64,000 bases of DNA from a virus. Taxonomy: Duplodnaviria; Heunggongvirae; Uroviricota; Caudoviricetes. Made by a program: the position numbers and the translations under genes. Shown piece by piece: positions 11,940-58,342 of this stretch. The DNA lies in IMG/VR virus record IMGVR_UViG_2706796742_000001, positions 1-64,000 of that record; one strand, given 5' to 3'. Position 1 is the stretch's first letter, and each line of letters starts with the position of its first letter. The notes under the pieces are model-generated. The model searched no databases, was not told the origin of the DNA, and was given only the letters and a program-made list of their open reading frames with translations.

Positions 11940-12212
11940 ATGTATACTACTAACAACGGTCGCACCTTAAACGTAACACTGCGCCACTATGTGAACGGTG
12001 TAATGCACTTCGAGGATTTACAAGCTGAACAACATATCTTGGATTGGCAACTTGCAGGATTCCAAAAAACTGCTACCGGATACGGGAAAAAGATTCCAAC
12101 TAGTTGGAAAGTATACTACAAAGGACGTTTGCGCAGAATTTATCAGGATGTTTACAGCAATAGCGCAACAAGTTACATCATGGTAAAAGGTAAAAAGCTG
12201 CATTTAGTGTAA
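11940..12212 (+). CDS. hypothetical early protein
   Basis: Preceded by class-B cassette. Confidence 0.5.
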   Translation: MYTTNNGRTLNVTLRHYVNGVMHFEDLQAEQHILDWQLAGFQKTATGYGKKIPTSWKVYYKGRLRRIYQDVYSNSATSYIMVKGKKLHLV

Positions 12213-25298: not shown

Positions 25299-26714
25299 AT
25301 GAGCGAATTATTTAAACATGCGCACCTTCATGCAGGTCGAACTGAAAATGGTGCTATAAACCATACTTCACCAATGTCTGCTCTGGTAGACTTCTACAAA
25401 GCCGCTGGCTCAAGCCGTAGCAATGTAGAAATCTTACCAGACCTGTTCTACAAAGCTTTGCGTGAGGATGTTGATGTTGCAGTTCGTATTTTACTGCATA
25501 TGCGAGATGTACGAGAAGGTATGGGTGAGCGTAAAGCTTTCCGAACTGTTTTACTTCAAGCAATTGAAGATAAAGTTTTAGAGCCTACACAGGTTCTTCG
25601 TATTATGGATAAGATTGCAGAACTTGGTCGTTTTGATGACTTCAAAATCTTCGTAGGTACTCGTTTTGAGACAGATGCCTTCAAACATTTAGAAACAGCA
25701 TTACTAGACCCTGCAACAGCAGGTTTAGCAGCTAAGTGGTTACCACGAGTAAAACCACGCCACAAACAGTTTGTAAAACGTTTCTGTAAGTTTGCAAACT
25801 TAAGTGAGAAGGAGTATCGCACACTGTTATCTGCACTGTCTGATACGGTTGAGCAAAAAATCTCTGCTAATGAGTTTGGTAAGATTGACTACAGCAAGAT
25901 TCCTTCACTCGCTGCTGCACGTTACCAAAAACTCTTTAACCGTAAAGATGGGGAACGTTACAAAGCTTACATCGAGTCACTCTCAAAAGGTGAGGCTAAG
26001 ATTAATGCTGGTGCTGTTTACCCATACGATGTGATTAAATCTATTAAATATGGTAATGCAGATGTTGCTAATGAGCAGTGGAAAGCACTACCAAACTGGA
26101 TGGCAGAAGGTGAAAACATCCTGTGTATGACTGATGTTTCAAGCTCAATGTCTTGGGTGAATCTTGGCTCAATCACTGCCCTTGATATTGGTGTATCACT
26201 TGCCTTGTATGTAGCAGAACGCAATACAGGTTGCTTTAAAGATGAGTTAATGGTTTATTCAACAAACCCTCACTTCATCGAACTGAGTGGTGATTTACGA
26301 AACCGTCATCGTCAGGTAATGCGTCATGTTGAATATGGCTCAACTAACTTACAAGCAGCTTTTGACCGCATTCTTGAGACAGGTAAGAGAAACAACTTGA
26401 CTCAGAAAGATATGCCAAGTAAGCTTATCATCTTCTCTGATATGGAGTTTAATCAGGTTGATGGTGCAAATGGTCGTACAAACTTTGAAGCAATTCGTAG
26501 TAAGTACAAAAAAGCTGGATACGAAATGCCACAACTAGTATTCTGGTACTTAGCAAACCGTAATGGTACTTGCGAAGTATCTGTTAAGGATAATGGTGTA
26601 GCAATGGTATCAGGGTTCTCTCCAGCTACTTTAAAAGCTCTGCTTGGTGGTGAGAAGTTTGACCCAATCAGTGTAATGCTCAAAGCAGTAATGATTGACC
26701 GTTACATCTGGTAA
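25299..26714 (+). CDS. vWA-domain protein with alpha-helical N-terminal domain (possible TROVE/Ro60-like or DUF2828-type)
   Basis: MIDAS-like motif CMTDVSSSMS (DxSxS) with downstream Thr and IIFSDMEF acidic motif; preceded by TTGACA-N18-TAAAGT promoter; immediately upstream of tRNA cluster. Confidence 0.5.
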   Translation: MSELFKHAHLHAGRTENGAINHTSPMSALVDFYKAAGSSRSNVEILPDLFYKALREDVDVAVRILLHMRDVREGMGERKAFRTVLLQAIEDKVLEPTQVLRIMDKIAELGRFDDFKIFVGTRFETDAFKHLETALLDPATAGLAAKWLPRVKPRHKQFVKRFCKFANLSEKEYRTLLSALSDTVEQKISANEFGKIDYSKIPSLAAARYQKLFNRKDGERYKAYIESLSKGEAKINAGAVYPYDVIKSIKYGNADVANEQWKALPNWMAEGENILCMTDVSSSMSWVNLGSITALDIGVSLALYVAERNTGCFKDELMVYSTNPHFIELSGDLRNRHRQVMRHVEYGSTNLQAAFDRILETGKRNNLTQKDMPSKLIIFSDMEFNQVDGANGRTNFEAIRSKYKKAGYEMPQLVFWYLANRNGTCEVSVKDNGVAMVSGFSPATLKALLGGEKFDPISVMLKAVMIDRYIW

Positions 26715-26732: not shown

Positions 26733-26761
26733 TTGACAATGTGTTTGATACCCTTTAATAT
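26733..26761 (+). promoter_or_regulatory. strong sigma70-like promoter upstream of tRNA cluster
   Basis: TTGACA-N17-TAATAT preceded by AAAAAGTTTTAAAAAGGG. Confidence 0.6.
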
Positions 26762-26823
26762 GTTCTACATAGAAACGAAATGAGAGCTTTTCTAAGATAC
26801 TGAAAAATATTTTAAAAAAGTTC

Positions 26824-26853
26824 TTGACAACCACTAAAAAATAATGTTAAAGT
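26824..26853 (+). promoter_or_regulatory. second sigma70-like promoter upstream of tRNA cluster
   Basis: TTGACA-N18-TAAAGT, about 27 nt before first tRNA. Confidence 0.5.
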
Positions 26854-26963: not shown

Positions 26964-27040
26964 GTTCCAGTAGACAAAATGGTATAGTCACCACTCTTTC
27001 AAAGTGGATATTTGAGGGTTCAAATCCCTTCTGGAACGCC
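26964..27040 (+). tRNA. tRNA-Glu (anticodon TTC)
   Basis: Acceptor GTTCCAG/CTGGAAC, anticodon stem CCACT/AGTGG, loop CTTTCAA, T-arm GAGGG-TTCAAAT-CCCTT. Confidence 0.65.
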
Positions 27041-27044
27041 AGTT

Positions 27045-27122
27045 TTGACAGAAGACCAATTACAGCAAACTTAATCTTATACATCTGAAGGTAAATCGGA
27101 CAAAGAAGAGATTTGGTCTGGT
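27045..27122 (+). other. conserved inter-tRNA element E1
   Basis: 5' box CAGAAGACCAATTACAGCAAACTTAA and 3' TTTGGTCTGG able to pair with the 5' AGACCAAA; no T-loop. Confidence 0.5.
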
Positions 27123-27131
27123 CATTAAGAA

Positions 27132-27208
27132 TTGCGGGTATAGAGAAAGGGCGTCTCACATGTCTCATTAGCATGGTATCGGCAGGTTCGACTCCTGCAC
27201 CCGCCTCC
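27132..27208 (+). tRNA. tRNA with CAT anticodon (Met, initiator or Ile-lysidine type); 1-72 mismatch
   Basis: T-arm GCAGG-TTCGACT-CCTGC, anticodon stem CATGT/GCATG, loop CTCATTA; U1-C72 unpaired. Confidence 0.45.
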
Positions 27209-27211
27209 AAT

Positions 27212-27277
27212 TTTGCAGAAGACCGTATGCAGCAATAAACTACTTTTTGCGGATAAAAGAAAAAAACACGGTCTGGC
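27212..27277 (+). other. conserved inter-tRNA element E2
   Basis: CAGAAGACCGTATGCAGCAATAAACT ... CGGTCTGG. Confidence 0.5.
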
Positions 27278-27286
27278 AATGTATTA

Positions 27287-27363
27287 AGGTTAGGAAGCAC
27301 ATAAGGTATGTGCGGTCGCCTGTTAAGCGAATGGCACAGGGTTCGAATCCCTGACTAACCGCC
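27287..27363 (+). tRNA. tRNA-Asn (anticodon GTT)
   Basis: D-stem GCAC/GTGC, anticodon loop CTGTTAA, T-arm CAGGG-TTCGAAT-CCCTG. Confidence 0.65.
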
Positions 27364-27432
27364 AAATTTAGGAGAGAAGCGATTGCTCACCGATTTGTAA
27401 GGTGCAAGTCCTTAGCCTGAATAGAAATTAAA

Positions 27433-27520
27433 TGTGTCGTTATCCCGTAGATGGTAGCGGTGGGGACTGTAAATCCCTTGTCATTGAGACTCGGTAGGTT
27501 CGACTCCTACACGGCACACC
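27433..27520 (+). tRNA. tRNA-Tyr (anticodon GTA), long variable arm
   Basis: 88 nt; acceptor GTGTCGT/ACGGCAC, anticodon loop CTGTAAA, T-arm GTAGG-TTCGACT-CCTAC. Confidence 0.6.
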
Positions 27521-27525
27521 AATAA

Positions 27526-27603
27526 AGGCTATGTAGTTTAATAGGGTTAAAATACTCCCCTGTCACGGGAGATGATGTGAGTTCAAGTCTCATCGTAGCC
27601 GCC
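27526..27603 (+). tRNA. tRNA-Asp (anticodon GTC)
   Basis: Anticodon stem CTCCC/GGGAG, loop CTGTCAC, T-arm GTGAG-TTCAAGT-CTCAT. Confidence 0.6.
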
Positions 27604-27635
27604 AATTTTGAGAGGGCTATTTAGCCCCTCCCTTA

Positions 27636-27668
27636 AAGGGTTCTTACGAGTATCCTTTAAAGGGGCAG
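27636..27668 (+). other. conserved hairpin element, copy 1
   Basis: TTAAAGGGTTCTTACGAGTATCCTTTAA (7-bp stem, 14-nt loop). Confidence 0.45.
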
Positions 27669-27741
27669 AAGACCAAATTCAGCAAGTTACTTAAAATTTC
27701 AAGCCAATTCAATTTTGAAAAAATTTAAAACTTGGTCTGGC
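27662..27741 (+). other. conserved inter-tRNA element E3
   Basis: CAGAAGACCAAATTCAGCAAGTTACTTAA ... TTGGTCTGG. Confidence 0.5.
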
Positions 27742-27750
27742 TCAACAAAT

Positions 27751-27835
27751 TTACAGAAGACCGTTTACAGCAAAACTTAAACAATCTATTTCTCGGTAAA
27801 GAAAAGGCGAAGGTTCGATTCCCTCCACTTCTACC
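27751..27835 (+). other. conserved element E4 with tRNA-like 3' half
   Basis: CAGAAGACCGTTTACAGCAAAACTTAA then GAAGG-TTCGATT-CCCTC T-arm-like hairpin and CCA; only 5 acceptor pairs and no convincing D or anticodon arm. Confidence 0.4.
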
Positions 27836-27839
27836 AATA

Positions 27840-27916
27840 TGGTTCAGTCGCAGATAAGGTAATGCAAGGGTTTCATAAGCCCTATGAATGTGGGTTCGAA
27901 TCCCATCTGAACCTCC
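27840..27916 (+). tRNA. tRNA-Met (anticodon CAT)
   Basis: Acceptor GGTTCAG/CTGAACC, anticodon loop TTCATAA with three G-C pairs in stem, T-arm GTGGG-TTCGAAT-CCCAT. Confidence 0.6.
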
Positions 27917-27918
27917 AA

Positions 27919-27993
27919 TTGTGGGTTAGCATAAATGGTAATGCAAACGGCTGATAACCGTTAGAAGAGGGTTCGATACCCTCACCTACAACC
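27919..27993 (+). tRNA. tRNA-Ile (anticodon GAT)
   Basis: Anticodon stem AACGG/CCGTT, loop CTGATAA, T-arm GAGGG-TTCGATA-CCCTC. Confidence 0.65.
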
Positions 27994-28008
27994 AATTTTA
28001 ATAAAGTT

Positions 28009-28037
28009 GTTGACATTGAGATGTGACCACTTTATAG
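28009..28037 (+). promoter_or_regulatory. strong internal sigma70-like promoter in tRNA cluster
   Basis: TTGACA-N17-TATAGT preceded by A/T-rich tract. Confidence 0.6.
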
Positions 28038-28330
28038 TAACTAAAATACTTCATAATATGTATAATTCAAACACCAATACATGAGCATTAGACGTAATGC
28101 AATGTGGGGAAATTTGTTGTACATATTCTGAATAGTTTTCGTTGCGTAGCGTCTATTTTGCAAATTTAAAATAAATGCAAACGACAATGTTTTTCTGGCA
28201 GTAGCTTGATAGGCTAAACACCAGTGAGGTCTTCCAATCCCTCATCAAAGAATTTGGCGTACTAGCCCACGGTATGATTAATAAGGTGGGCATCTTTAAG
28301 GGCTTTCTAAGAGAGTCTTTAAAGATTAAT

Positions 28331-28407
28331 GCACCCTTAGTTCAACTGGACAGAACAAATGACTTCTAATCATTAGGTTACAGGTTCGAATCCTGTAGGG
28401 TGTGCCA
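28331..28407 (+). tRNA. tRNA-Arg (anticodon TCT)
   Basis: D-stem GTTC/GAAC, anticodon stem AATGA/TCATT, loop CTTCTAA, T-arm ACAGG-TTCGAAT-CCTGT. Confidence 0.7.
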
Positions 28408-28549
28408 AATAGTTAGCAGATTGCTTAGACGACCTTATCGGGTCTCCGTGTAGGGAGGTGGTCTGTATCTCATGTTTTCCAGAACATGTAAATAATCTGA
28501 GAAGGGGCTTTACAGTGTTGTGAAAATACGGTAAGCTTCGAATTATAGT

Positions 28550-28632
28550 GTGGGACGATGTTAAGACTCTAAGGCATGAGCAACGGCCTCCAAAACCGTT
28601 TCAAAGTGGTTCAACTCCTCCGTCCCATGCCA
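28550..28632 (+). tRNA. atypical tRNA-like gene, possibly tRNA-Trp (anticodon CCA) with expanded D region
   Basis: 7-bp acceptor GTGGGAC/GTCCCAT plus CCA; candidate loop CTCCAAA; T-arm weak; D region about 7 nt too long. Confidence 0.3.
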
Positions 28633-28645
28633 AAGTCTTATTAGG

Positions 28646-28733
28646 GGTAGGTAGCGGCTAATGGTAGCCAAACAGTCTTGAAAACTGTTGCCACTGTAGA
28701 GATACGGTGAGGGTTCGACTCCTTTACTTACCG
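28646..28733 (+). tRNA. tRNA-Ser (anticodon TGA), long variable arm
   Basis: Anticodon stem ACAGT/ACTGT, loop CTTGAAA, long variable arm, discriminator G; CCA not fully encoded. Confidence 0.6.
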
Positions 28734-28987
28734 CCTAATAAGATTTAGACCGTCATGCTCGCTCGCATTTTCGGTTTATCCCTCGTGTGTTGTCGTACAC
28801 AAGTAAAGCACCTAGTAGGTGTCACGGAGAAGAGATAATATCAAGCTCTCCAAAGGTTCTAGTCACCGGATTAAACAAGACTATGCAAAGACCTATTTAG
28901 GTCTTTTTAGAGAACTTCTAAGGTTATTACAGCTTGTTGTGGAACCTTGTTGCTTAGGTTCTTAGAAGTTCTCTAAAAAGATTTAAT

Positions 28988-29064
28988 GCACCTATAGCCC
29001 AACTGGTAGAGGCAGCAGACTTAGAATCTGCTCAGTGTGAGTTCGAATCTCTCTAGGTGTACCA
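28988..29064 (+). tRNA. tRNA with anticodon TAG (Leu by code) but short variable loop
   Basis: Leu-like D-arm GCC-CAACTGGTAGA-GGC, anticodon stem GCAGA/TCTGC, loop CTTAGAA, 5-nt variable loop, discriminator A. Confidence 0.45.
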
Positions 29065-29071
29065 AATTAAT

Positions 29072-29147
29072 GCAGGTGTAGCAAAATGGTTATGCGGCTG
29101 ACTCTTAATCAGTAAGACGATGGGTTCAATTCCCTCCACCTGTACCA
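29072..29147 (+). tRNA. tRNA-Lys (anticodon CTT)
   Basis: Anticodon stem GCTGA/TCAGT, loop CTCTTAA; T-arm has two mismatches. Confidence 0.5.
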
Positions 29148-29153
29148 GACATT

Positions 29154-29229
29154 GGGGATGTAGTTTACATGGTTAAAACATAAGTTTTGCAAACTTAAGT
29201 ACAGGGTTCAATTCCCTGCTTCTCCACCA
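29154..29229 (+). tRNA. tRNA-Ala (anticodon TGC)
   Basis: G3-U70 wobble pair in acceptor (Ala identity), D-stem GTTT/AAAC, loop TTTGCAA, T-arm CAGGG-TTCAATT-CCCTG. Confidence 0.7.
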
Positions 29230-29235
29230 ATTAGT

Positions 29236-29310
29236 GCATCCATAGTTTAAACGGGAAAATTACAGTCTTCCAAACTGAGGTTGAGGGTTCGATTCCCTCT
29301 GGATGCTCCA
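29236..29310 (+). tRNA. tRNA-Gly (anticodon TCC)
   Basis: Acceptor GCATCCA/TGGATGC, loop CTTCCAA, T-arm GAGGG-TTCGATT-CCCTC. Confidence 0.6.
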
Positions 29311-29317
29311 AATTAAT

Positions 29318-29394
29318 GCTGCTTTCGTATAATTGGCTATTACACATCCATTGTAAGGATGGAAATGCAGGTTCGAGTCCTGTGAGCAGCACCA
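29318..29394 (+). tRNA. tRNA-Thr (anticodon TGT)
   Basis: Anticodon stem CATCC/GGATG, loop ATTGTAA, T-arm GCAGG-TTCGAGT-CCTGT. Confidence 0.65.
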
Positions 29395-29489
29395 ATTCAG
29401 AGGTCAAGTGAAAGACCGCTGGTGTCAACTGAAGACCGTAACAAATTCCACGGAGTTGAGTTAGCGGCACAACTTCAGACCTCTTTCAC
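29395..29489 (+). other. divergent copy E5 of the inter-tRNA element
   Basis: CTGAAGACCGTAACAAATTCCA; flanking inverted repeat CAGAGGTC ... GACCTCT. Confidence 0.35.
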
Positions 29490-30657: not shown

Positions 30658-30690
30658 TTCTAAGGGTTCTTACGAGAGTCCTTAAATGTG
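30658..30690 (+). other. conserved hairpin element, copy 2
   Basis: CTAAGGGTTCTTACGAGAGTCCTTAAA, same loop core GGGTTCTTACGAG as copy 1. Confidence 0.45.
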
Positions 30691-30763
30691 GCCTTATCAT
30701 AAATGGTAATGACCCATGCTGTGAACATGGTCTATACGGGTTCAAATCCCGTAGGTCACCCCA
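30688..30763 (+). tRNA. tRNA-His (anticodon GTG)
   Basis: Anticodon stem CCATG/CATGG, loop CTGTGAA, T-arm ACGGG-TTCAAAT-CCCGT, discriminator C. Confidence 0.65.
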
Positions 30764-57982: not shown

Positions 57983-58342
57983 TTATGGGAACAAACATTT
58001 AATGTCATCGTTTTTGAAAACGAAGCTTGTGTAGTTGTGACCGTCAACATCCAACCAAACAGCCTGAACATCTACACCATCAAGATTGTGGTAAAGCTCT
58101 TTGATGAAGTGGTCTTTCACAATCTGGCTGCTAGTTGTTTCCAGCTTAATGTTTGAGATTGCTGAACCTACAGCCATATAACCCATGACTCGCTTCTTCT
58201 CAGTATGCTTAATCTTACCATCTTTGTAAGCCATAATGAGATTGGAGAGAATCTTTACACCATAATACTTTTCAAGGTGAGTAGGTGCACCATAAAAGCC
58301 TAATGCGAAGTTTTCAGAGTGGATAATGTTTTCACGTTTCAT
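57983..58342 (-). CDS. hypothetical protein
   Basis: 119-aa ORF. Confidence 0.45.
   Translation of the reverse strand: MKRENIIHSENFALGFYGAPTHLEKYYGVKILSNLIMAYKDGKIKHTEKKRVMGYMAVGSAISNIKLETTSSQIVKDHFIKELYHNLDGVDVQAVWLDVDGHNYTSFVFKNDDIKCLFP

What the first reader, a model, noticed from the sequence alone, without database searches (positions are those of the whole stretch)
27045..29489. Family of five paralogous non-tRNA elements interspersed in the tRNA cluster
Between canonical tRNAs there are five elements sharing a 5' box CAGAAGACC(A/G)...CAGCAA...CTTAA (E1 27045, E2 27212, E3 27662, E4 27751, E5 29395). Three end in GGTCTGG, which can pair with the 5' AGACC to close a 60-80-nt domain. E4 additionally carries a tRNA-like T-arm and CCA but does not fold into a cloverleaf. 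They are not canonical tRNAs or ORFs. They could be structured small RNAs, degenerate tRNA derivatives, processing signals or internal promoters (E1 and E2 contain TTGACA/TTGCAG-like hexamers).
Basis: seen in the sequence. Interest (0 to 1): 0.7.

Follow-up and report, generated by a model that had tools for sequence, protein, structure and literature searches.

The report
Phage Y-RNA-like partners of Ro60-like protein
Four small non-tRNA elements in this Felix O1-like phage's tRNA cluster belong to a widespread, undescribed family of structured RNAs found beside a Ro60-like protein gene, so they are most likely that protein's "Y RNA" partners.

Summary
E1 (27049-27121), E2 (27216-27276) and E3 (27666-27740) each have a 7-bp terminal stem (AGACCRW/WYGGUCU), 3 nt, an invariant CAGCAA, a variable hairpin and a 3' GG.

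E4 is a remnant. A ~270-nt deletion between two T-loop sequences fused its 5' half to the 3' end of tRNA-Lys(UUU). In relatives E4 is 125-130 nt and carries a YrlA-like tRNA-mimic module.

The same RNA design occurs on the gene strand next to DUF2828 genes in unrelated phages and bacterial contigs. A covariance model built without any Felix-like sequence ranks E2, E1 and E3 as the three best hits in the 64-kb window (E 2e-8 to 6e-5). In 80 independent bacterial loci, all 52 hits lie on the gene strand.

Best reading: these are Y-RNA-like subunits of a phage Ro60-like RNP, co-transcribed with the tRNAs. Expression and protein binding are inferred, not shown.

The design differs from canonical YrlA (no GNCGAA motif) and closely resembles Dictyostelium Class I RNAs. 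I rate it a new variant of a known kind.

The parts
25299..26714 (+). Ro60-like protein gene (471 aa; Pfam DUF2828 + DUF7788; PHROG 850 'RNA-binding protein'); proposed protein partner of the RNAs
26733..26853 (+). Two strong sigma-70-like promoters (26733-26761 and 26824-26853) that head the transcription unit holding tRNA-Pro to tRNA-Ile and E1-E4
   Evidence: 10 of 12 consensus matches each. The next + strand promoter is at 28010.
27049..27121 (+). E1: short stem-UACAGCAA RNA. 5' strand 27053-27059, CAGCAA 27063-27068, 3' strand 27113-27119, GG tail.
   Evidence: Model R1 scores it 38.4 bits, E 1.3e-7.
27216..27276 (+). E2: short stem-CAGCAA RNA. 5' strand 27220-27226, CAGCAA 27230-27235, 3' strand 27268-27274.
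   Evidence: Model R1 scores it 41.5 bits, E 2e-8; it is the best hit in the window.
27666..27740 (+). E3: short stem-CAGCAA RNA. 5' strand 27670-27676, CAGCAA 27680-27685, 3' strand 27732-27738.
   Evidence: Model R1 scores it 28.4 bits, E 5.9e-5.
27754..27822 (+). E4 remnant: 5' half of a YrlA-like long form. It keeps the 5' strand (27758-27765), CAGCAA (27768-27773), the V-like hairpin (27789-27804) and the 5' part of the T-arm. The acceptor-like and D arms and the 3' strand are deleted.
   Evidence: Alignment with full-length E4 of Mushroom, Sf17, Mijalis and others. Fold of full-length E4. Pair counts. Partial R1 hit of 12.7 bits.
27823..27836 (+). 3' end of the deleted tRNA-Lys(UUU): T-stem 3' side, acceptor 3' strand and CCA, fused to E4. 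The junction lies within GGTTCGATTCC|CTCC.
   Evidence: ARAGORN finds no tRNA-Lys(UUU) in the window, while relatives have one. In every listed top record the flanks are ~390 nt apart instead of 116.
29395..29489 (+). E5: NOT part of the family. It is a separate conserved ~85-nt hairpin between tRNA-Thr and tRNA-Val.
   Evidence: Fold z-score -2.96. Near-invariant in relatives, with no covariation. No R1 hit.

Best explanation
E1, E2 and E3 are Y-RNA-like small non-coding RNAs, and so was E4 before it was truncated in this genome. They are transcribed from the two promoters at 26733 and 26824 as part of the polycistronic tRNA precursor. Ordinary tRNA processing would release them: RNase P at the 5' end of the next tRNA, and endo- and exonucleolytic trimming back to the terminal helix.

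Each RNA has two parts. The first is a constant 'handle': a 7-bp helix joining the 5' and 3' ends, a single-stranded U-A/U-CAGCAA that starts 3 nt after the 5' strand, an A-rich run before the 3' strand, and a 3' G. The second is a variable 'cargo', either a small hairpin (E1-E3) or a tRNA-mimic T/acceptor-like/D module (full-length E4).

The handle is proposed to be the binding site for the Ro60-like ring protein encoded 335 nt upstream (25299-26714). By analogy with Ro60/Y-RNA particles, the cargo would gate the protein or tether it to other factors such as host exoribonucleases or tRNA enzymes. The resulting RNP would act in RNA surveillance, RNA repair or anti-defence during infection.

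Shown here: the sequence family, its helix, its genomic linkage to the protein family, and the protein's Ro60 fold. Inferred: expression as stable RNAs, the processing route, direct binding, and the downstream function.
For: 1. The family exists in the window far beyond chance.

3. The same design lies next to the homologous gene in unrelated phages. Klebsiella phage KP13-16 has 5 copies, Mycobacterium phage LeBron has 3 and Aeromonas phage LAh_6 has about 9. Their stem sequences differ completely.

4. I scanned 72 non-Ounavirinae viral loci with a structural descriptor. It hits 0.60 times per kb on the gene strand within 900 nt of the gene, against 0.03 per kb on the opposite strand. 55 of the 72 loci have at least one hit.

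5. Covariance model R1 was built only from non-Ounavirinae elements. It ranks E2, E1 and E3 as the top three hits in the 64-kb window, with E 2e-8, 1.3e-7 and 5.9e-5.

6. In 80 independent bacterial or MAG loci around DUF2828 genes, all 52 hits at E<=0.01 are on the gene strand, mostly within ~700 nt upstream and all within ~1.8 kb of the gene.

7. Long-form sister elements match Rfam YrlA at 37-43 bits, E 1e-7 to 1e-4. Full-length E4 folds into V, T, acceptor-like and D hairpins inside the terminal helix. Its acceptor-like stem shows compensatory changes across genera.

8. Known biology fits. Y RNAs are encoded within 4 kb of Ro60 genes on the same strand, including in phages (PMC4201824). 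Phage phiLo Ro60 binds two adjacent Y-like RNAs (PMC12135203). The Bas63 orthologue gp130 is Ro60-like and counters the Ppl defence, and its authors guessed that Y RNAs hide in the tRNA cluster (bioRxiv 10.1101/2024.10.10.617714).
Against: - No expression, end-mapping or binding data exist for these elements.
- The protein resembles Ro60 only at the fold level. Pfam TROVE is not hit, and a sequence profile finds no Ro60 chain in the PDB.
- The elements lack the GNCGAAN0-1G motif that defines YrlA/YrlB, and they get no Rfam YrlA hit. Even full-length E4 of a relative gets none.
- Within Ounavirinae the outer five base pairs of the helix are nearly invariant. Covariation there is limited to the two inner pairs (AA/UU versus GU/AC) plus wobble variants.
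- The training set of R1 was chosen with a descriptor that requires a stem, so the 100% pairing is circular. The non-circular support comes from the strand and position bias and from the independent hits.
- The CAGCAA motif could instead be read by another factor, or act by base pairing.
Confidence: 0.7

Rival explanations
1. The elements are stand-alone regulatory or decoy RNAs that work without the Ro60-like protein. They might base-pair through the single-stranded CAGCAA 'seed', or act as decoys for host nucleases or defence systems that attack tRNAs.
For: The invariant motif is predicted to be single-stranded. The elements sit among tRNAs, and phage tRNA clusters are linked to evasion of tRNA-targeting defences (context cited). 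Binding to the protein has not been shown.
Against: The tight same-strand adjacency to DUF2828 genes holds in very diverse genomes, including loci with no adjacent tRNAs such as LeBron. Co-inheritance of this kind is what is expected for an RNA-protein pair. A 6-nt seed conserved from actinophages to enterophages would need a universal target, and none was identified.
Confidence: 0.12
2. The elements are cis-acting processing or spacer structures that guide maturation of the polycistronic tRNA precursor, for example as RNase entry or stop sites. They would not accumulate as functional RNAs.
For: They lie between tRNAs in one transcription unit. The 5' flank is A/U-rich and single-stranded.
Against: Most tRNA-tRNA junctions in the same cluster are 2-10 nt and need no such element. 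The same family occurs next to Ro-like genes away from any tRNA (L010 and L009). The cargo modules, including a complete tRNA mimic, have no obvious use as spacers.
Confidence: 0.08
3. The elements are decayed tRNA pseudogenes or recombination scars with no present function.
For: The window's E4 really is a recombination scar that fuses an element to a tRNA remnant. YrlA-type RNAs probably descend from tRNAs (PMC4201824).
Against: E1-E3 have no tRNA features at all. The design is conserved with compensatory stem changes across phyla, and it is detected by an independent model at E down to 2e-8.
Confidence: 0.03
4. The elements are internal sigma-70 promoters within the tRNA cluster.
For: E1 contains TTGACA (27045-27050).
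Against: The promoter scan finds no site in E1-E4. The hexamer is absent from E2, E3 and E4, and from the family in other phages.
Confidence: 0.02

Closest known systems
Bacterial and phage Y RNAs: YrlA and YrlB (Rfam RF02553; Chen et al. 2014, PMC4201824) and the Yrl1/Yrl2 RNAs of Thermus phage phiLo (PMC12135203)
   Same: They are encoded next to a Ro60-type ring protein gene, on the same strand and often in several copies. The 5' and 3' ends pair into a helix, with a conserved single-stranded motif just inside it. The build is modular. Long forms carry a tRNA-mimic module in the order V, T, acceptor-like, D, as full-length E4 and its sister elements do. Short forms lack that module, as YrlB does.
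   Different: The conserved motif is U(A/U)CAGCAA rather than GNCGAAN0-1G. The partner protein belongs to Pfam DUF2828/DUF7788 and is recognisable as Ro60 only by fold. The elements are not detected by the Rfam YrlA model; sister long forms reach only 37-43 bits against a gathering score of 69. In Felix-like phages they are embedded in the tRNA cluster.
Dictyostelid Class I RNAs (Rfam RF01414; Kjellin et al. 2021, PMC7919456)
   Same: The design is nearly identical. Both have a 6-7-bp helix joining the ends and CAGCAA starting 10 nt after the first paired base, inside (C)UUACAGCAA. Both have a variable middle, an A-rich run before the 3' strand, a 3' (C/U)UG tail and a size of 45-75 nt. The Rfam Class I model scores LAh_6 phage elements at 28-30 bits.
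   Different: Class I RNAs are eukaryotic nuclear genes with a DUSE promoter, and they were reported as unique to Dictyostelia. Their known direct binder is the RRM protein Rnp1A. No window element reaches E<=1 with the Rfam model; E3 of a relative scores 15 bits against a gathering score of 41.5. I could not test whether Dictyostelium has a DUF2828 or Ro-like partner.
Stable non-tRNA RNAs in phage tRNA clusters (for example T4 species 1 and 2 / RNA C and D; recalled from my own knowledge, not tested here)
   Same: They are small stable RNAs of unknown function, co-transcribed and co-processed with phage tRNAs.
   Different: I know of no Ro60-like partner or CAGCAA design for the T4 RNAs. No comparison was run.

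Membership tests
Y RNA / YrlA-YrlB class | Encoded within ~4 kb of a Ro60 orthologue and on the same strand | tested here: met
   E1 starts 335 nt after the stop of ORF 25299-26714, and all the elements are on the + strand. The criterion comes from PMC4201824.
Y RNA / YrlA-YrlB class | Partner protein is a Ro60 (TROVE HEAT ring + vWA) | tested here: inconclusive
Y RNA / YrlA-YrlB class | 5' and 3' ends pair into a terminal helix that encloses the rest of the RNA | tested here: met
   E1-E3 have a 7-bp helix. Across the wider family, 6 of the 7 pairs change on both sides (note that the set was selected for pairing).
Y RNA / YrlA-YrlB class | GNCGAAN0-1G motif near the 5' end | tested here: not met
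   The motif is absent. The conserved motif at that place is U(A/U)CAGCAA.
Y RNA / YrlA-YrlB class | tRNA-like domain (T, acceptor-like, D and V arms) in at least one RNA per genome | tested here: inconclusive
   E1-E3 have none. Full-length E4 in relatives has all four arms with a canonical UUCGAUU T-loop and a GG D-loop. In this window E4 is truncated after the T-loop.
Y RNA / YrlA-YrlB class | Rfam RF02553 score at or above the gathering score (69 bits) | tested here: not met
   There is no YrlA hit in the window or on full-length E4. Sister long forms in other phages score 37-43 bits.
Y RNA / YrlA-YrlB class | Physical association with the Ro60 protein | not testable with these tools
   This needs RIP, CLIP or EMSA.
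Stem-UACAGCAA RNAs beside DUF2828 Ro-like genes (family defined here) | Significant match to covariance model R1, which was built without any Ounavirinae sequence | tested here: met
   E2 scores 41.5 bits, E1 38.4 and E3 28.4. They are the top three hits in 64 kb. E4 gives only a partial hit (12.7 bits) and E5 gives none.
Dictyostelid Class I RNA (RF01414) | Short terminal stem plus the 11-nt motif CCUUACAGCAA adjacent to the 5' strand, and a CUG(U) 3' end | tested here: inconclusive
   The stem is present. The motif reads UUACAGCAA in E1, AUGCAGCAA in E2 and AUUCAGCAA in E3, at the same offset. The 3' end is UCUGG.
Dictyostelid Class I RNA (RF01414) | Rfam score at or above the gathering score (41.5 bits) | tested here: not met
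   No hit at E<=1 in the window. E3 of Mushroom scores 15.3 bits. The best phage elements (LAh_6) score 28-30 bits.
tRNA | Cloverleaf recognised by ARAGORN or Rfam RF00005 | tested here: not met
   The only near miss is the 5' part of E4 in Sf17, at 28.8 bits against a gathering score of 29.
Sigma-70 promoter | Conserved -35 and -10 hexamers at 16-18 nt spacing | tested here: not met
   One search finds none within 27040-27840.

The most novel reading that the evidence does not exclude
The stem-UACAGCAA RNAs of phages and bacteria and the Class I RNAs of dictyostelid amoebae may be one RNA family, or convergent ligands of one protein family. Class I RNAs are abundant, developmentally important, of unknown mechanism, and were reported as unique to Dictyostelia. 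On this reading they would be Y-RNA-like ligands of a Ro/TROVE-like (DUF2828-type) protein. The RNP would then span viruses, bacteria and eukaryotes, and Felix O1-like phages would offer a tractable system for working out what the conserved CAGCAA handle does.
Probability: 0.35. Interest if true: 0.9.

Novelty: new variant of a known kind. Interest (0 to 1): 0.75.

Why it matters
- **Candidate RNA partners for a known protein.** It proposes specific RNA subunits for a phage Ro60-like protein. In the close relative Bas63 this protein has a measured anti-defence phenotype, but no RNA partner had been pinpointed. That makes deletion, binding and structural experiments possible at once.
- **A family missing from Rfam.** It defines a large structured-RNA family that Rfam 15 does not hold. 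Copies were found beside about 90 DUF2828 genes in the phage, viral-contig and bacterial/MAG loci examined.
- **Ro-type proteins may read different handles.** If these RNAs do bind the protein, Ro-type proteins read at least two different RNA handles: GNCGAA and UACAGCAA.
- **A recurring module.** Ro-like gene, Y-like RNAs and tRNA array keep turning up together, which points to a role in tRNA or RNA homeostasis during infection.
- **A testable lead for Dictyostelium.** The near-identity of design with Class I RNAs gives a concrete hypothesis for a 20-year-old orphan RNA class.

Tried and rejected
- **Rfam.** Six E-value-threshold searches gave no family for E1-E4 themselves. The only results were sub-threshold YrlA and Dicty_Class_I hits on sister elements.
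- **Promoter reading.** Rejected.
- **E5 as a fifth member.** Rejected.
- **Other model R1 hits in the window.** 58122-58179 on the - strand (21 bits) and 12142-12184 (16 bits) both lie inside ORFs. I judged them chance matches.
- **Sequence-level link from the protein to Ro60.** None found.
- **A second covariance model for the long, tRNA-mimic forms.** Abandoned. MAFFT could not align the length-variable acceptor-like and D arms; only the terminal helix and the T-arm came out.
- **Dictyostelium protein side.** The afdb50 fold library was unavailable, so I could not ask whether Dictyostelium or other eukaryotes carry the protein.
- **Papers not held.** Avesson 2011, Aspegren 2004, Sim 2018 and Sim 2020.
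- **Supplements.** The supplementary tables of Chen 2014, which list its 22 phages, are not held.
- **Expression data.** A literature search for expression data on Felixounavirus non-coding RNAs found nothing relevant.
- **Second Rfam check on bacterial loci.** It gave no Dicty_Class_I hits at E<=1. The Dictyostelium link therefore rests on shared design, not on a significant model score.
Full report
**What the window is.** The region is 93-96% identical to the tRNA clusters of many Felixounavirus phages, the Felix O1-like phages of E. coli and Salmonella. ARAGORN finds 25 tRNAs on the + strand between 26880 and 31770. Sigma-70-like promoters lie at 26733, 26824 and 28010.

**Checking the observation.** The exact 9-mer CAGAAGACC occurs four times in 64 kb, all within 27049-27762 on the + strand. 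Each copy is followed 5 nt later by CAGCAA (repeat family D10). The pattern AGACC...GGTCTGG has 4 matches against 0.13 expected, and three of them are E1-E3.
- Read precisely, E1 (27049-27121), E2 (27216-27276) and E3 (27666-27740) are built the same way. Each has a 7-bp terminal helix (AGACCAA/UUGGUCU or AGACCGU/ACGGUCU), 3 nt, CAGCAA, a variable A/U-rich hairpin, the 3' strand and GG.
- None is called as a tRNA.
- E5 shares only an internal GAAGACCGT. It lacks CAGCAA and GGTCTGG and is a separate, near-invariant long hairpin. It is not a fifth copy.

**E4 is a deletion chimera.**
- In Mushroom, pinkbiff, Si3, Sf17, Sf16 and Mijalis, E4 is 125-130 nt and ends in GGTCTGG.
- About 150 nt further on, those phages carry a tRNA-Lys(UUU) that the window lacks.
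- The window copy is identical to full-length E4 up to GGTTCGATTCC. It then continues with CTCCACTTCTACCA, which is the 3' end of tRNA-Lys(UUU), and runs straight into the next tRNA-Met.
- Recombination between the two T-loop sequences therefore removed about 270 nt.
- In every one of the 15 listed top phage records the two flanks are ~390 nt apart rather than 116, so the deletion looks rare.

**Full-length E4 has the YrlA layout.**
- Inside the terminal helix it folds into a small V-like hairpin (UUUCU/AGAAA), a canonical T-arm (GAAGG-UUCGAUU-CCUUC), a closed acceptor-like hairpin and a D-arm (GGUGU-AAUGGUA-GCACU).
- The acceptor-like stem reads ACUCG/CGAGU in Felix-like phages, ACACG/CGUGU in Sf17 and ACCCUUC/GAAGGGU in Mijalis. 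It is 100% paired, with two pairs changed on both sides.
- The order V, T, acceptor-like, D inside an end-to-end helix is exactly the layout described for bacterial YrlA Y RNAs (PMC4201824).

**The neighbouring gene.**
- ORF 25299-26714 ends 335 nt before E1. Pfam sees only DUF2828 and DUF7788, and PHROGs calls it an 'RNA-binding protein'.
- An AlphaFold model built on 34 homologues has pLDDT 82.6.
- Its 11 best Foldseek matches in the PDB are all Ro60 proteins, matched over their full length.
- Sequence methods do not see this relationship.
- By tblastn the protein has homologues in 708 phage records. These include mycobacteriophages, where it is annotated 'Ro-like RNA binding protein'.
- A preprint on Bas63, a Felixounavirus, reports that the orthologue gp130 is Ro60-like and counters the Ppl defence system. 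Its authors speculated that some 'tRNA genes' downstream might be Y RNAs, but they did not identify any.

**The same RNA design travels with the gene.**
- Klebsiella phage KP13-16 (protein 51% identical) has five elements directly after the homologous gene. Three of them carry T/acceptor-like/D modules.
- Mycobacterium phage LeBron (31% identical, high GC) has three.
- Aeromonas phage LAh_6 has about nine upstream of the gene.
- All have a 6-8-bp terminal helix of unrelated sequence, then 2-4 nt, CAGCAA, variable cargo, the 3' strand and a G.
- I wrote a descriptor for this design: a 7-bp stem, 2-4 nt, CAGCAA, then 12-150 nt. I ran it on 72 non-Ounavirinae IMG/VR loci fetched through the protein.
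- It hits 0.60 times per kb on the gene strand within 900 nt of the gene. It hits 0.03 per kb on the opposite strand, and 0.08 and 0.03 per kb further away. 55 of the 72 loci have at least one hit.
- The base two positions before CAGCAA is U in 94% of the elements.

**An independent model.** I aligned 43 short elements, none from Ounavirinae (A2), and built covariance model R1 from them.
- In the window its three best hits are E2 (41.5 bits, E 2e-8), E1 (38.4 bits, 1.3e-7) and E3 (28.4 bits, 5.9e-5).
- The next hits, at 21 and 16 bits, lie inside ORFs and are probably chance. The E4 remnant gives a partial hit and E5 gives none.
- On 80 bacterial or MAG loci around DUF2828 genes, which were not used to build the model, all 52 hits at E<=0.01 are on the gene strand. 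Most lie within ~700 nt upstream of the gene and all within ~1.8 kb of it.
- In A2, six of the seven helix pairs change on both sides. That set was selected for pairing, so the strand and position bias and the two independent searches are the real tests.

**Relation to known families.**
- Rfam 15 has no family for E1-E4.
- Long-form sister elements match Rfam YrlA at 37-43 bits, E 1e-7 to 1e-4, below the gathering score of 69. The YrlA consensus has GgCGAAuG where these RNAs have UACAGCAA.
- They are therefore Y-RNA-like in layout, genomic linkage and cargo, but they use a different handle and a very divergent Ro-type protein.
- Unexpectedly, the Rfam consensus for Dictyostelium Class I RNAs (GaUcuC-CUUACAGCAA...A-rich...GagAuC-UG) has the same design at the same offsets. 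That model scores three LAh_6 elements at 28-30 bits.
- Real Class I sequences from the supplement of PMC7919456, such as DdR-21 (GUUGACCUUACAGCAA...GUCAACUG), align column for column with the phage 5' halves. In one search I added AA at the 5' end and U at the 3' end of the Dictyostelium sequences, following the paper's stated consensus termini.
- That paper reports Class I RNAs as unique to Dictyostelia.
- No window element reaches significance with the Dictyostelium model, and a second check on bacterial loci gave no hits. I could not test whether Dictyostelium has the protein. The link is a lead, not a finding.

**How it most likely works.** Shown here:
- a conserved structured-RNA family;
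- its covarying terminal helix;
- its same-strand linkage to a protein family;
- the Ro60 fold of that protein;
- the position of E1-E4 inside a tRNA transcription unit with no promoter of their own.

Inferred:
- The RNAs are cut out of the tRNA precursor by ordinary tRNA processing.
- The helix plus single-stranded UACAGCAA is the handle bound by the Ro60-like ring.
- The cargo gates the protein or tethers it to host factors. The precedents are Deinococcus and Salmonella Ro60-Y RNA-PNPase complexes and phage phiLo Ro60-Yrl-PNPase.
- The RNP serves RNA surveillance, RNA repair or anti-defence. The Ppl phenotype of Bas63 gp130 supports this. So does the repeated co-location of Ro-like genes, these RNAs and large tRNA arrays.

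**Rivals.**
- A protein-independent seed or decoy RNA: possible, but it explains the co-inheritance poorly.
- Mere processing spacers: other tRNA junctions need none, and the family occurs away from tRNAs.
- tRNA pseudogenes: true only of the window's E4 scar.
- Promoters: no conserved hexamers.

**Verdict.** Three members are intact and one is truncated. The family is best described as a new, CAGCAA-type variant of Y-RNA-like RNAs partnered with a DUF2828-type Ro60-like protein. A preprint anticipated the general idea, but neither it nor Rfam identifies the RNAs, their motif or their wide distribution.

Noticed in passing
window 28553-28635 (+): A tRNA-like remnant (GTGGGAC...GGTTCAACTCC...GTCCCATGCCA) has an acceptor-like pairing and a CCA, but neither ARAGORN nor Rfam calls it. 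It may be a degenerate tRNA or another tRNA mimic.
   Followed up: no
window 28040-28330 (+); also L007 8390-8465 and L065 4664-4740: About 290 nt of non-coding sequence follow the strong promoter at 28010. They give weak Rfam tmRNA and permuted-tmRNA hits (E 0.005-0.1). In other Ro-like loci, tmRNA tRNA-like-domain hits are stronger (31-34 bits, E 1e-9), which suggests further tRNA-like RNAs in this module.
   Followed up: no
window 29395-29489 (+): E5 is a stable ~85-nt hairpin (z -2.96) between tRNA-Thr and tRNA-Val. It is nearly invariant between the Felixounavirus and Mooglevirus genera. Its function is unknown and it is not part of the CAGCAA family.
   Followed up: partly
window 27605-27665 and 30662-30692 (+): A hairpin-forming spacer (AAGGGTTCTTACGAG(T/A)(A/G)TCCTT(T)AAA...) is repeated at two places in the tRNA cluster with 84% identity (D19). 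At the first site a G+C-rich hairpin (GAGAGGGCTATTTAGCCCCTC) precedes it.
   Followed up: no
window 27365-27433 (+): The 69-nt spacer between tRNA-Asn and tRNA-Tyr contains a T-arm-like hairpin (AAGGTGCAAGTCCTT). It is conserved in relatives and no tool calls it.
   Followed up: no
window 27754-27836 (+): In the E4/tRNA-Lys chimera, the 5' AGAAG of the box is complementary to CUUCU of the tRNA-Lys acceptor 3' strand. The scar could therefore still close into a 5-bp terminal helix ending in ACCA. Whether it is functional is unknown.
   Followed up: no
L022 5276-5370, L023 3133-3232, L029 149-280, L038 1265-1373, L062 5734-5828: A second kind of long-form cargo, ...GAACCUUUCUGGAGGGGAAAGCAAAAACUCGCCAAAA..., sits on the same stem-UACAGCAA chassis in several viral contigs. 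The handle therefore appears to carry at least three different cargo modules.
   Followed up: no
L008 5964-6089 (Vibrio phage KVP40); also L028 5950-5985 and L031 5946-5986: In some phages a stem-UUACAGCAA element ends only a few to ~20 nt before, or overlaps, the start codon of the Ro-like gene. This might allow autoregulation of the protein by its own RNA handle.
   Followed up: no
L121 and L148 (Chloroflexota MAG contigs); also L074, L025 and L065: DUF2828 Ro-like genes are repeatedly flanked by very large tRNA arrays, with 20-30 tRNAs within 3 kb. This matches the arrangement in the window.
   Followed up: partly
window 58122-58179 (-) and 12142-12184 (+): These are weak hits to family model R1 (21 bits, E 0.005, and 16 bits, E 0.08). 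Both lie inside ORFs (57983-58342 on the - strand; 11940-12212 on the + strand). They are probably chance matches.
   Followed up: partly
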